DNA of 64,000 nucleotides from Paludibacteraceae bacterium (GTDB taxonomy: Bacteria; Bacteroidota; Bacteroidia; Bacteroidales; Paludibacteraceae). The notes under the pieces are model-generated. The model was not told the origin of the DNA. It ran no database searches and worked only from the letters and a program-made list of their open reading frames with translations. The DNA lies in assembly GCA_045598805.1 (NCBI GenBank), contig JAZLMS010000055.1:25086-89085 (forward strand), written 5' to 3'. The position numbers and the translations under genes are program-made. Positions 56,296 to 58,896 of this stretch are shown in pieces (position 1 is the stretch's first letter; each line of letters begins with the position of its first letter).

Positions 56296-56686
56296 AGAGG
56301 CTACTATTGAGAAGGCCTTATGTCTGTTAGGCTGTTCTCAGTGGTCTTCTTTCTATTATTCCGAGGCGGTAGATTTTGAATCATCAAACGAGTTCTGCAA
56401 TTGTTGTGCGTGTGTGGAGTCCAAGATGGAACCGTTAGAGTTCTTATTGTTCACGCAGCAGATTGAGCGAGAACTGGGACGGGAGCGCAAGTCGGTTAAT
56501 GGCGAGCACTTCGATCGTGAGATTGATATTGACATTTTACTCGCTTATCCCTCTCAACCTATCAGCCTTTCAGTCTCTCAGTCTATCAGCCTTTCGACTC
56601 CAGAATTGACGTTGCCACACCCTAAAATGCATAATCGTCCTTTTGTTATGCTTCCTTTGCAAGAAATTTTACAAAAAAACGCATAA
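56255..56686 (+). CDS. folK: 2-amino-4-hydroxy-6-hydroxymethyldihydropteridine diphosphokinase (HPPK)
   Basis: From the internal ATG: MLYYLSLGSNLGNRE...IERELGRER...DIDIL...LTLPHPKMHNRPFVMLPL. Carries an in-frame 24-bp repeat insertion (PISLSVSQSISLST). Confidence 0.8.
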   Translation: MLYYLSLGSNLGNREATIEKALCLLGCSQWSSFYYSEAVDFESSNEFCNCCACVESKMEPLEFLLFTQQIERELGRERKSVNGEHFDREIDIDILLAYPSQPISLSVSQSISLSTPELTLPHPKMHNRPFVMLPLQEILQKNA

Positions 56687-56713
56687 TTATTTGCATATAT
56701 GAAAAAAAAGCAG

Positions 56714-56721
56714 TACCTTTG
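56714..56721 (+). promoter_or_regulatory. Bacteroidota -7 box (TAccTTTG) for tRNA-Thr
   Basis: Exact TAnnTTTG match 30 nt upstream of the tRNA 5' end. Confidence 0.55.
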
Positions 56722-56751
56722 CACCCGCAATTGAGAGATTGCTCTTATTTT

Positions 56752-56824
<73 letters not shown>

Positions 56825-56833
56825 CTCACAATT

Positions 56834-56862
56834 AAAAGGGATTCATTTTTTGAGTCCCTTTT
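56834..56862 (+). terminator. hairpin terminator after tRNA-Thr
   Basis: Stem aaaaggga / tccctttt, 8 bp (plus tc/ga), followed by a T-rich atcatttt. Confidence 0.55.
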
Positions 56863-57021
56863 ATCATTTTCCCTACCCTATACCCAAGTACGATAGTGCG
56901 AGGATGGGTATCCCTCGGGCATCACCTTAGACAAACGCGGTAATCAGGCGGTAATCACGCGGAGAAGATAGCGTGATGACTCTGTGACGACATGGTGAAG
57001 GCATAGCGAAGACTGCTACAG

Positions 57022-57076
57022 TAACCGAGCAGATACCGAGCAGTTACCGAGCAGATACCGAGCAGATACCGAGCAG
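57022..57076. repeat. 5 x 11-bp tandem repeat (WTACCGAGCAG)
   Basis: Units taaccgagcag ataccgagcag ttaccgagcag ataccgagcag ataccgagcag. Confidence 0.95.
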
Positions 57077-57163
57077 ATAGTAAGTGCTGAAAGCAGGGGG
57101 ATAGGAGGGGAGAAGGAGCGCCCTTCGGTCACAGACCGTACTCCCAAGAGCGAGAGGGAGAGG

Positions 57164-57195
57164 TCGATATTTCGAGGACTCGATAATTCGAGGAC
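57164..57195. repeat. 2 x 16-bp tandem repeat
   Basis: Units tcgatatttcgaggac / tcgataattcgaggac. Confidence 0.9.
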
Positions 57196-57207
57196 GAGAA
57201 ATAAGAG

Positions 57208-57632
57208 ACCGCGGTTACGAGCCGCGGGAGATAGACACCTAAACGGCGAAAATATATCGGTGTGCGCGGACGCACCGCCGAGAAGGGACAGGGTACAGAA
57301 GCGCGACCAAAGGGAGCGGAGCAGCGCAGCAAAGCGCGACAAGAAGAGCGAAGAGGCGGAGGGGCAGCGCAGCAAAGCACAAAGAAACCCGCATACAATG
57401 CGGGAACAAAATGGACGAAAAGCCCGCGGTTACGAGCCGCGGGAGGAAAGACACTCCCAAATGGTCGCCCAAACGGCGAAAGACTTTCGCCGAGAAAGGA
57501 CAGGGTACAAAGAGCCACTCGCGGACGCTCGCGGAACAGGACGGTACAACGGAAAGACGGACGTGGCAGCGGCCGGATTTCCGATGGCGTGATACCCGCA
57601 TACAATGCAGGGAGAAAAGGACAAAAAAAAGA
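57208..57632. repeat. degenerate ~210-230-bp tandem duplication of a four-module non-coding unit
   Basis: Four modules recur in the same order. They are (C)CCGCGGTTACGAGCCGCGGG (57208 / 57423), AAACGGCGAAA (57241 / 57471), GCCGAGAARGGACAGGGTACARA (57277 / 57489) and ACCCGCATACAATGCRGG (57387 / 57594). Confidence 0.8.
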
Positions 57633-57720
57633 ACCCGCATACAATGCGGGGAGAAAAGGACAAAAAAGAACCCGCATACAATGCGGGGAGAAAAGGACAA
57701 AAAAAGAACCCGCATAAGGA
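57594..57720 (-). terminator. 3.3-copy tandem array (37-39-bp unit) of hairpin + U-tract elements, about 50 nt downstream of the SpoIID-like gene
   Basis: The minus strand reads CCCGCAT-TGT-ATGCGGG followed by TTCTTTTTTTGTCCTTTTCTC in each unit. Units at 57594-57632, 57633-57669 and 57670-57707, with a partial unit at 57708-57720. An orphan copy lies at 57387-57421. Confidence 0.5.
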
Positions 57721-57771
57721 TAAACGCTATGTATAGAAACAAACACATATATGCAAATAAAAATGCACTTT

Positions 57772-58896
57772 TCAATCAAAAAGCGAGATTTCGGTATTTC
57801 GATAGTAATGAGCCAAGATTTGACGATAAGTGAACCCTTGCTCTGCCATGACAGCGGCTCCTATCTGACATAAACCTACCCCATGACCCCAGCCTTTTCC
57901 GCGAAGGCGGAGCTTCGCAGGACCGGCTTCGCCTGAAAGACCGCTATCACTGAAGGACCGCTGTGCTGAAAGACCGCTATCGCAGACCTGTGGTCTGCCG
58001 CTGAAGGACTTTTCGACTTCGAACCACGAACTGTATAGGGTCGTTTTTGAAAGGGTTTGACGGATACGCAGCTCCTTACTTATCACCTCCCGATGCTTAG
58101 TGCCTACTATCTCCAACCTATCGATTCGCCCACTCGCACCACGATGCAATGGGATAAGGTCGGTAATCAAACCAAAATCAATTCCCGTCTTCTCACGCAC
58201 AATAGCAGAGAGTTCCTCTTGCGTATATTCAACAATCCAATCGTGATAATTGACCGTAGAACGGTCGTAATCGTTCATATAAGAGCGGCGGAGAGCCTCC
58301 GCAGGCATATCAGGCGTACAATAAGAACATTCAACGGATTGGAGATAAGGATAGTCCTTGTCCTCCCAACAAGTAGAATAGAGTTCCGTGCGTCCACCGC
58401 AACACTTATGGTAGCGGCAATCGCATATGTCTTTAGGGTTTAGAGTGGAGAGTGGAGAGTGGAGAGGTATTAGAATTTCACCTTTTGTTTCGTTGACCGC
58501 TTGAAGAGCGAGGGCAGAGCGGCGACGGATACCGTTATACCGCTGACAATGGTCATCGGCACAGACATCATATCCTACGTGTCCCGTATGACCGATATTG
58601 CGTAAGACCCACGAACGGGAGATAACAGCGTGCGCCTTCAATAACTCAAGAGGACTATCCGCAGACATCTCCGAACAAATGACACAAGAGATATACGACT
58701 CGAGGTCAATGATATTGACCGCCGTCTCGGTACCATCTGCATTATGCAGAATTTCCAACTCACCCTCGAACTCCTCGTCTTCCGTTTGATCCCAATGAAA
58801 GCCAATGCCGATACGCACATTATGAAGAACGAACGTGTGCTCCCTTAACTCATAATCAATATGCGAAGCCGTCAATATGCCGACACGGAGATTCAT
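57772..58896 (-). CDS. SpoIID/LytB domain protein
   Basis: AHAVISRSW...YDVCADDHCQRYNG...GKGWGHGVGLCQIGA motifs. Carries two in-frame repeat insertions. Confidence 0.8.
   Translation of the reverse strand: MNLRVGILTASHIDYELREHTFVLHNVRIGIGFHWDQTEDEEFEGELEILHNADGTETAVNIIDLESYISCVICSEMSADSPLELLKAHAVISRSWVLRNIGHTGHVGYDVCADDHCQRYNGIRRRSALALQAVNETKGEILIPLHSPLSTLNPKDICDCRYHKCCGGRTELYSTCWEDKDYPYLQSVECSYCTPDMPAEALRRSYMNDYDRSTVNYHDWIVEYTQEELSAIVREKTGIDFGLITDLIPLHRGASGRIDRLEIVGTKHREVISKELRIRQTLSKTTLYSSWFEVEKSFSGRPQVCDSGLSAQRSFSDSGLSGEAGPAKLRLRGKGWGHGVGLCQIGAAVMAEQGFTYRQILAHYYRNTEISLFD

What the first reader, a model, noticed from the sequence alone, without database searches (positions are those of the whole stretch)
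57080..57771. Purine-rich, hairpin-dense non-coding island with a degenerate ~210-230-bp duplication between tRNA-Thr and a convergent gene
Seen in the sequence:
- About 950 bp (56825-57771) lack any credible ORF. The ORFs tracked on both strands are low-complexity read-throughs of repeats.
- From about 57080 the + strand is conspicuously A/G-rich.
- Four modules recur in the same order with offsets of 207-230 bp: hairpin (C)CCGCGG-TTACGAG-CCGCGGG (57208 and 57423), AAACGGCGAAA (57241 and 57471), GCCGAGAARGGACAGGGTACARA (57277 and 57489), and hairpin ACCCGCA-TACAA-TGCRGG (57387 and 57594).
- Further strong stems include CGGCGAAAG-A-CTTTCGCCG (57474-57492) and a duplicated GCAGCGCAGCAAAGC (57321 and 57364).
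- I found no TAnnTTTG box on either strand inside the island.

Inference, several possibilities: a structured 3' UTR or ncRNA made by read-through from the SpoIID-like gene; a REP/BIME-like extragenic element cluster; or a decayed remnant at a tRNA integration hotspot. Nothing I recognise (RNase P, tmRNA, SRP, 6S, CRISPR) fits.
Basis: partly seen in the sequence, partly recalled or inferred. Interest (0 to 1): 0.65.

Follow-up and report, generated by a model that had tools for sequence, protein, structure and literature searches.

The report
Mosaic purine-rich intergenic repeat island
The 900-base non-coding stretch is the largest of about two dozen patchwork clusters of small hairpin repeats and short tandem repeats scattered through this uncultured gut Paludibacteraceae genome, so it is repeat DNA of the REP/BIME, NIME or BOX kind and not a gene for a structured RNA.

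Summary

The stretch is not a unique locus. Its modules recur at about 30 places in the same 1.75-Mb MAG, and about 12 of these are multi-module islands, many at contig ends. All modules except one hairpin (M6) keep a single orientation on the purine-rich strand. They often follow the order M4-M2-M5-M1-M6-M3, a unit of about 215 nt.

Single modules, not whole islands, also occur in a minority of same-genus genomes (9 of 120). Stem pairs are kept through compensatory changes.

In the nearest relative examined (G252), neither flank carries an island, and the two flanks lie 33 kb apart. The island therefore sits at a rearrangement junction, next to the dead -33 half of a promoter.

I found no promoter, Rfam family, tRNA att duplication, phage similarity or Y1/RAYT transposase.

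Best reading: a REP/BIME-, NIME- or BOX-like mosaic repeat cluster, grown by local duplication. Its hairpins plus U-tracts probably terminate the convergent SpoIID-like gene.

The scan has already noted similar families in other gut Bacteroidales.

The parts
56752..56825 (+). tRNA-Thr(CGT), left neighbour (context). Its promoter -7 box TACCTTTG is at 56714.
56833..56863 (+). 13-bp hairpin followed by a T-rich tail: intrinsic terminator of the tRNA gene
   Evidence: (I2)
56906..56990 (+). Pre-header repeats, including ACGCGGTAATC x2.5 (56935-56962). Also found at C35, C13, C22, C24 and C29.
57000..57032 (+). Header module M8 (GGCATAGCGAAGACTGCTACAGTAACCGAGCAG). It stands at the 5' edge of six islands and contains TAG and TAA.
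57024..57079 (+). 11-bp tandem repeat ACCGAGCAGAT x5.1
57076..57099 (+). Module M9, GATAGTAAGTGCTGAAAGCAGGGG (3 copies in the genome)
57119..57159 (+). Module shared with C56:897-937 (90% identity)
57164..57195 (+). 16-bp tandem repeat TCGATAWTTCGAGGAC x2
57208..57228 (+). M1 hairpin, copy A (ACCGCGG-TTACGAG-CCGCGGG). On the minus strand it is terminator-like.
57241..57297 (+). Composite: the 5' half of M3, then M6 in reverse orientation (57256-57276), then M3b (57277-57297). The same composite is found at C42:12-53, C15:19811, C19:182 and C42:39658.
57311..57378 (+). M7 module twice (25-nt direct repeat, 84% identity, offset 43)
57386..57406 (+). M2 hairpin, solo copy (CCCGCAT-ACA-ATGCGGG)
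57423..57443 (+). M1 hairpin, copy B
57472..57509 (+). M3 hairpin (CGGCGAAAG-A-CTTTCGCCG) plus M3b (GGACAGGGTACA), copy B
57515..57544 (+). M5 module, CCACTCGCGGACGCTCGCGGAACAGGACGG
57594..57716 (+). 37-bp tandem array x3.2 of the M2 hairpin plus a purine tail. On the minus strand each unit is a hairpin plus U-tract, starting about 50 nt after the SpoIID-like stop.
57746..57771 (-). Remnant of the -33 half of the genus-wide promoter cassette (GCATTTTTATTTGCATATATG). The -7 box is destroyed: TACATAGC instead of TAnnTTTG. In G252 the intact promoter drives the next gene.
57772..58896 (-). SpoIID-like gene, convergent right neighbour (context)

Best explanation
The island is a composite cluster of a lineage-specific family of small non-coding repeat modules. 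These are GC-rich hairpins of 17-45 nt with purine tails, plus purine-rich tandem repeats of 7-16 nt. All are joined in one polarity, so one strand is purine-rich.

It is not a gene. It has no promoter of its own, no coding potential and no conserved position.

It grew in place by duplication at several scales (11, 16, 37 and about 215 bp). It also grew by copying or recombination of modules with the other islands, and it lies at a junction where gene order differs from the nearest relatives.

Its likely local effect is incidental. On the minus strand, the M2 and M1 hairpins are followed by U-tracts and should terminate the SpoIID-like transcript before it runs antisense into tRNA-Thr. The tRNA gene has its own terminator.

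Shown: the repeat family, its mosaic nature, its polarity, hairpin conservation, absence at the orthologous flanks, and absence of a promoter. Inferred: the terminator or insulator role and the mode of spread. No transposase was found, so recombination or slippage is presumed.
For: - Dispersal: 65 BLAST matches in the own genome. About 30 places and about 12 multi-module islands, several at contig ends.
- Polarity: modules M1-M5 and M7-M9 (3-11 copies each) are never found in the reversed orientation relative to the local purine skew. Only M6 (27 copies) occurs both ways.
- The recurring order M4-M4b-M2-M5-M1-M6-M3-M3b explains the ~215-bp periodicity.
- Single modules are 81-98% identical in 9 of 120 same-genus genomes, and islands of the same build occur there.
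- Stems are 95-97% paired, with G-C/A-U/C-G alternatives.
- G252 has no island after tRNA-Thr: a convergent gene follows about 40 nt later. It has none after SpoIID either: an intact promoter and genes follow. These two loci are 33 kb apart. The G252 neighbour gene maps to C44 in this genome.
- Six terminator-like sites were found against 2.0 +/- 1.6 in shuffles, five of them on the minus strand inside the island.
- Both strands fold far better than shuffles, z -10.9 and -6.0.
- Assembly looks sound. The longest exact repeat is 50 nt to the rest of the genome and 43 nt internally. Contig ends overlap by 141 nt, which indicates k=141.
Against: - No reads, strains or RNA data could be examined. 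There was no exact-protein contig and no metagenome hit. Hypervariability, transcription and termination are therefore untested.
- The strict common polarity, a recurrent 5' header and compensatory stem changes could also indicate a strand-specific (RNA or ssDNA) function or mobilisation mechanism that 'junk' repeat DNA does not require.
- The genome is only 75% complete, so a mobilising gene could be missing.
Confidence: 0.72

Rival explanations
1. The purine-rich strand is a functional multi-hairpin RNA. It could be a 3' trailer of tRNA-Thr, a protein sponge of the CsrB type, or an mRNA-stabilising or insulating element. The modules would be selected at RNA level.
For: - Fold z-score is -10.9 on the + strand against -6.0 on the - strand.
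- Stem pairs show compensatory changes.
- All modules share one polarity.
- Genome-wide, strongly purine-rich intergenic tracts lie sense to co-directional flanking genes 53:13, and sense to the upstream gene 83:22.
- M6 has a UCCG (UNCG-type) loop.
- In some islands the purine strand must be transcribed, because C44 abuts a start codon.
Against: - There is no promoter in or before the island, and a terminator sits directly after the tRNA.
- There is no positional conservation and no Rfam family.
- Content is mosaic and variable, with microsatellites between modules.
- No CsrA was found.
- Module islands are sense to the upstream gene only 14:7.
- One-sided stem changes are G.U 7 against A.C 5 when relatives are included, so there is no clear strand signal.
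- Compensatory changes in DNA palindromes can arise by template switching without RNA selection (established knowledge).
Confidence: 0.1
2. The modules are REPIN/REP-type elements mobilised as single-stranded DNA by a RAYT (Y1/HUH) transposase or another dedicated enzyme.
For: - The hairpin modules are short, GC-rich, dispersed and strand-specific.
- M6 also occurs solo and inside genes.
- A Y1_Tnp-type ORF exists in relative G185 (34.8 bits), and G193 has a marginal hit.
Against: - No Y1_Tnp was found in G000 (tblastn), nor in G252, which is 95% complete and carries the modules.
- The G185 gene is not flanked by the modules.
- Modules do not occur as inverted pairs with fixed spacing, as REPINs do.
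- No GTAG/CTAC-type conserved head was seen.
Confidence: 0.07
3. The island is the decayed scar of a mobile element that integrated at the 3' end of tRNA-Thr.
For: It lies directly downstream of a tRNA gene and at a synteny breakpoint relative to G252 and JAKSNF01.
Against: - There is no duplicated tRNA 3' end in the 64-kb window.
- There is no integrase or phage-like sequence and no match to 50,697 phage records.
- The content consists entirely of modules that occur at many non-tRNA sites.
Confidence: 0.05
4. The island is an assembly artefact: a chimeric join or a collapsed or expanded repeat in a short-read MAG.
For: - Several contigs of this MAG end inside sister islands (C33, C44, C19, C31, C42).
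- The tRNA-Thr/SpoIID adjacency is not seen in relatives.
Against: - The longest exact repeat shared with the rest of the genome is 50 nt, and the longest internal one is 43 nt. Both are well below the 141-nt overlaps that mark the assembler's k.
- The island lies mid-contig in a 116-kb contig.
Confidence: 0.04

Closest known systems
REP / BIME clusters of enterobacteria and pseudomonads (PMC3333891, PMC2817692, PMC3116915)
   Same: Short GC-rich extragenic palindromes are clustered with other conserved motifs into mosaic intergenic elements. They lie after genes, act as hairpins at 3' ends, and are lineage-specific and rapidly evolving.
   Different: BIME REPs alternate in orientation and are tied to RAYT genes. 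Here all modules but one keep a single orientation. One strand is 65-78% purine and microsatellites are integral parts. No Y1 transposase was found in G000 or G252.
Neisserial intergenic mosaic elements, NIME arrays (PMC1797815)
   Same: Long arrays of a small hairpin repeat are interspersed with many families of 20-200-bp repeat sequences. The arrays are dynamic in length, are associated with recombination and variable gene neighbourhoods, and no function has been proven.
   Different: NIMEs are built on one 20-bp dRS3 inverted repeat that brackets RS elements and serves as a phage integration site. Here there are about ten different hairpin modules, no bracketing repeat, a purine strand bias and tandem microsatellites.
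BOX elements of Streptococcus pneumoniae (PMC3049150)
   Same: The build is modular (boxA-boxB(n)-boxC), with a variable number of tandem internal modules and extensive secondary structure. No transposase is known. Large elements create spurious ORFs on both strands. They are judged parasitic but affect co-transcribed genes.
   Different: BOX has fixed terminal modules and one family. The islands here have a looser order, many module families and a strong purine asymmetry.
BrickBuilt MITE with internal minisatellite in Porphyromonas gingivalis (PMC4596501)
   Same: It comes from the same phylum and is a non-coding dispersed element that contains a tandem minisatellite and sits in intergenic regions.
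   Different: BrickBuilt has terminal inverted repeats and a defined MITE body. No terminal inverted repeats or target-site duplications were seen here.
Rickettsia palindromic elements (own knowledge: Ogata et al. 2000; mentioned in PMC10969869)
   Same: The M6 hairpin plus heptamer repeats lies inside long coding ORFs without breaking the frame. The SpoIID-like protein carries species-variable repeat-derived inserts.
   Different: This applies to sister copies and not to the island under study. There is no sequence relation.

Membership tests
REP/BIME (REPIN-RAYT system) | Short GC-rich palindromic units present in many extragenic copies | tested here: met
   M1, M2, M3, M4 and M6 hairpins have 8-27 copies each in 1.75 Mb, mostly intergenic. 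Copy numbers are low compared with the hundreds of classical REPs.
REP/BIME (REPIN-RAYT system) | Units in alternating (inverted) orientation at regular spacing within clusters | tested here: not met
   Modules M1-M5 and M7-M9 all lie in the same orientation in every island. Only M6 flips.
REP/BIME (REPIN-RAYT system) | Cognate RAYT (Y1/HUH transposase) gene in the genome, flanked by the repeats | tested here: not met
   PF01797 is absent from G000 (75% complete) and from G252 (95% complete, module-bearing). The G185 hit is not flanked by modules. There is no homologue in G000. Absence in incomplete MAGs is not proof.
NIME-type mosaic repeat arrays | Arrays of one bracketing 20-bp inverted repeat (dRS3) separating diverse RS elements | tested here: not met
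   No single bracketing repeat exists. Different hairpins follow one another with purine linkers.
NIME-type mosaic repeat arrays | Arrays differ in length and content between genomes and sit next to variable gene neighbourhoods | tested here: met
   The island is absent at both orthologous flanks in G252, and the SpoIID neighbourhood in JAKSNF01 is different. Gene order differs. Strain-level variation could not be tested.
BOX-like modular repeats | Fixed terminal modules with a variable number of internal tandem modules | tested here: inconclusive
   A header (M8 plus an 11-mer array plus M9) stands at the 5' edge of six islands, and internal modules vary in number. No constant 3' terminal module was found.
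MITE | Terminal inverted repeats and target-site duplication | tested here: not met
   The repeat finder reports only two inverted pairs in the island, neither at its ends. No flanking direct duplication was seen.
Structured ncRNA gene (any Rfam family) | Match to a covariance model, own promoter and terminator, positional conservation | tested here: not met
   Only the tRNA passes in Rfam. The best other hit scores 25 bits against a gathering threshold of 49.5. Sister islands have no hits. There is no TAnnTTTG. The island is absent at the orthologous sites.
tRNA-targeted integrative element remnant | Direct repeat of the tRNA 3' end (attL/attR), plus integrase or cargo remnants | tested here: not met
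   There is a single copy of the tRNA 3' 23-mer even with 3 mismatches allowed. There is no phage match and no coding potential.

The most novel reading that the evidence does not exclude
The islands may be a distinct, polar class of bacterial repeat element found in gut Bacteroidales.

- They start with a header that carries stop codons in three frames and often supplies the stop codon of the upstream gene.
- They extend in the sense direction as purine-rich microsatellites and then as one-orientation hairpin modules.
- Related pieces invade coding sequences in frame.

Such polarity would imply a strand-specific, transcription- or ssDNA-coupled mechanism of insertion or expansion. Candidates are R-loop-associated slippage or an unidentified enzyme. 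It would also imply a function of the purine-rich RNA, such as insulation between transcription units, rather than passive junk.
Probability: 0.15. Interest if true: 0.65.

Novelty: new variant of a known kind. Interest (0 to 1): 0.35.

Why it matters
The finding explains why MAGs of this lineage fragment: contigs end inside these islands. It also explains why spurious 100-200-aa ORFs are called on both strands, and why gene order differs at such sites.

It adds an uncultured herbivore-gut Paludibacteraceae clade to the bacteria that carry mosaic intergenic repeat arrays. This family has unusual traits: a single polarity, purine asymmetry and built-in microsatellites. No transposase was detected.

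If the polarity reflects a mechanism, the family could reveal a new way in which small repeats spread or insulate transcription in Bacteroidota. These bacteria use non-canonical promoters and translation signals.

As it stands, this is descriptive genome biology of moderate interest.

Tried and rejected
- **Rfam:** an E-value scan of the island and eight sister loci found only the tRNA and sub-threshold noise.
- **ORFs:** Pfam on the two longest island ORFs gave nothing. A dicodon coding-potential filter rejects them.
- **G.U versus A.C asymmetry:** I tested one-sided stem changes as a test of the functional strand. Within G000 the count is 5:1, but with relatives it is 7:5, which is not significant, so I dropped it.
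- **Orientation versus replication or gene strand:** island orientation against local GC skew and gene-strand majority follows no rule, 12 positive against 8 negative.
- **Orientation versus flanking genes:** only 14:7 sense to the upstream gene, not significant.
- **Candidate partner genes in G000:** CsrA, reverse transcriptase and Y1 transposase are all absent.
- **Independent assemblies of the locus:** the exact-protein look-up found none, and two metagenome pattern scans gave 0 hits.
- **Synteny test of a second island (C33) in relatives:** inconclusive, because the flanking genes lie on different contigs in G193 and were not detected in G252.

Full report
**Observation**

- From 57080 to 57771 the + strand is 67.6% purine (A 251, G 217, C 153, T 71) and 53% GC. 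The genome is 45.5% GC.
- Across the whole assembly, 300-nt windows have a purine fraction of 0.502 +/- 0.043. This is the longest skewed tract, 944 nt.
- All named modules are at the stated coordinates, with offsets of 207-230 bp.
- Tandem Repeats Finder adds 37 bp x3.2 (57594-57716), 11 bp x5.1 (57024-57079), 16 bp x2 and 11 bp x2.5.
- Aligning the two ~220-bp halves shows near-identical modules separated by unrelated linkers. In the first half one hairpin is interrupted by another module in reverse orientation. The 'duplication' is therefore a repeat of module order.
- ORFs on both strands have no Pfam hit and fail a dicodon coding filter trained on this genome.
- No TAnnTTTG box occurs after 56714 on either strand.

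**Not a unique locus**

- BLAST of the 946-bp spacer against the window's own genome gives 65 matches on many contigs. The genome is a 1.75-Mb, 59-contig, 75%-complete MAG.
- Merged, these make about 30 places and about 12 multi-module islands. Several lie at contig ends.
- C33 and C44 overlap by 141 nt and are one island broken by the assembler.
- I defined eleven modules and searched for them with mismatches. Copy numbers:

| Module | Sequence | Copies |
|---|---|---|
| M1 | CCCGCGG-TTRCGAG-CCGCGGG | 11 |
| M2 | CCCGCAT-ACA-ATGCGGG | 10 |
| M3 | CGGCGAAAG-A-CTTTCGCCG | 8 |
| M3b | | 11 |
| M4/M4b | | 9/8 |
| M5 | | 6 |
| M6 | GGTGCG-TCCG-CGCAC | 27 |
| M7-M9 | | 3-6 |

- M1-M5 and M7-M9 always lie in the orientation that puts them on the locally purine-rich strand. 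None is reversed. Only M6 occurs both ways, also solo and inside ORFs.
- The order M4-M4b-M2-M5-M1-M6-M3-M3b, about 215 nt, recurs in C33/C44, C56:41941-42200, C31 and C33:14071-14262. This explains the periodicity seen in the window.
- Between and beside the hairpins lie purine microsatellites: GGCGGAAG, AGGAGAA, GGCAGAGA, GAGAAAC and ACCGAGCAGAT.
- Six islands begin with the same header, M8 plus an 11-mer array plus M9.

**Relatives**

- Record titles place the lineage in Paludibacteraceae MAGs from horse faeces and rumen.
- The whole spacer finds only short weak matches in 10 of 24 same-genus genomes, and none in 16 other families of the order.
- A canonical unit finds single modules (40-80 nt, 81-98% identity) in 9 of 120 same-genus genomes.
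- Fetched regions from G193, G245 and G252 show islands of the same build and polarity, with additional modules.
- M6 is found in 4 of 151 family genomes. In G185, 17 of its 20 copies carry C-G at the loop-closing pair and the other 3 carry T-A. G000 copies carry mostly G-C there.
- M3 has G-C and A-T sub-families in four genomes. M2 has CCCACAT/ATGTGGG and TCCGCAT/ATGCGGA variants.
- Formal counts give 95-97% of cells paired, and cells changed on both sides exceed nearly all shuffles.
- The hairpins are thus maintained. In DNA palindromes this can also come from template switching (established knowledge), so it does not prove RNA function.

**Position**

- In G252 (SpoIID 78% identical), the gene is followed by an intact promoter, TTTG-N20-TAATTTTG, and small genes.
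- The homologous 26 nt in the window (57746-57771) is only the -33 half. TACATAGC stands where the -7 box should be.
- In G252, HPPK-tRNA-Thr lies 33 kb away on the same contig. It is followed by a terminator and, about 40 nt later, a convergent gene. The orthologue of that gene sits on C44 in G000.
- In JAKSNF01 (82% identical SpoIID) yet another gene and valS follow.
- The island therefore fills a rearrangement junction and is conserved at neither flank.

**What it is not**

- Rfam gives only the tRNA. Eight sister loci give nothing.
- There is no second copy of the tRNA 3' end and no phage similarity.
- No Y1/RAYT, reverse transcriptase or CsrA gene is found in G000.
- G252, which is 95% complete and bears modules, also lacks Y1_Tnp. 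G185 has one such gene, but it is not flanked by modules and has no homologue in G000.
- Artefact is unlikely. The longest exact repeat is 50 nt to the rest of the genome and 43 nt internally, while contig ends overlap by 141 nt, which is the assembler's k.

**Function**

- Both strands fold far better than shuffles: z -10.9 on the + strand and -6.0 on the - strand.
- The consensus scan finds six terminator-like sites against 2.0 +/- 1.6 expected. One follows the tRNA on the + strand. Five lie on the minus strand inside the island, three of them in or beside the 37-bp array that starts about 50 nt after the SpoIID-like stop.
- I infer that the island now supplies the terminators of the SpoIID-like gene and shields the tRNA gene from antisense read-through.
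- Island orientation shows no rule relative to local GC skew or gene-strand majority, and only a 14:7 tendency to be sense to the upstream gene.
- Genome-wide, strongly purine-rich intergenic tracts are sense to co-directional flanks 53:13. This parallels the coding-strand purine bias (143:51).
- One-sided stem changes give G.U 7 against A.C 5, which is no strand signal.

**Comparison with known systems**

- The closest known systems are REP/BIME (PMC3333891, PMC2817692), NIME arrays (PMC1797815), BOX elements (PMC3049150) and the BrickBuilt MITE of Porphyromonas (PMC4596501).
- The island works like these: mosaic, hairpin-rich, lineage-specific, at variable sites, and creating spurious ORFs.
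- It fails the defining tests for REPIN-RAYT (alternating orientation, cognate RAYT), for NIME (a single bracketing dRS3) and for MITEs (terminal inverted repeats and target duplication).
- Its single polarity, purine asymmetry, integral microsatellites and stop-bearing header set it apart.
- Earlier notes of this scan describe similar families in other gut Bacteroidales (e1-3033473, e1-4106776). I used them only as leads.

**Limits**

- No other assembly of this species was found.
- Transcription, termination and strain-level variability therefore remain untested.

**Verdict**

The island is a new variant of a known kind and of moderate interest.

Noticed in passing
window 57000-57032; G000 C17:28380-28430, C42:13256-13300(-), C33:259-300(-), C49:5978(-), C56:15876(-): The header module (..ATGAC/ATAGCRAAGACTGCTACAGTWACCGAGCAG) carries TGA, TAG and, in the GTAACC variant, TAA in three frames. 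In C17 and C42 it supplies the stop codon of the upstream co-oriented gene.
   Followed up: partly
G000 C28:54266-54286, C52:15448-15468, C25:13014-13034, C13:16969-16989, C17:46814-46834: The M6 hairpin, flanked by AGTTTAA/AGTTGAA heptamers, lies inside long ORFs with coding potential without breaking the frame. This resembles Rickettsia palindromic elements.
   Followed up: partly
window 57772-58896 (-): The SpoIID-like protein has two low-complexity segments (IPLHSPLSTLNPK; SFSGRPQVCDSGLSAQRSFSDSGLSGEAGPAK). They are absent or different in orthologues from G252, JAKSNF01, JAZRWG01 and G193, which indicates repeat-derived in-frame inserts that vary between species.
   Followed up: partly
G000 C2:5700-5830, C32:14420-14550, C56:12790-12920, C59:10020-10150: A conserved element of about 100 nt surrounds an M6 hairpin (..tacatctcgtgagcgatggcgga[M6]atatccgcaggcaaat..ccgatgccggtcaatcataggcggg) in four copies. 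It has no Rfam match.
   Followed up: partly
window 56667-56734 and dozens of sites per genome in G185, G193, G245, G252, G271: A promoter cassette of about 60 nt, TTATTTGCATATATGAAAAAAAAGCAGTACCTTTGCA (-33 TTTG, -7 TAnnTTTG), is conserved at 80-95% identity at dozens of loci per genome across the genus.
   Followed up: no
G000 contig ends (C33/C44, C5/C58, C10/C11, C13/C50/C57 and others): Many contig ends share exact 141-nt overlaps, so the assembly graph could be joined further. C33 start and C44 start form one repeat island between two co-directional genes.
   Followed up: partly
L128 (G193:C38:1-330), L134 (G193:C9): In relatives, some islands lie between a partial promoter copy (the -33 half plus an A-run) and a complete promoter of the downstream gene. 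This echoes the orphan -33 half at window 57746-57771.
   Followed up: no
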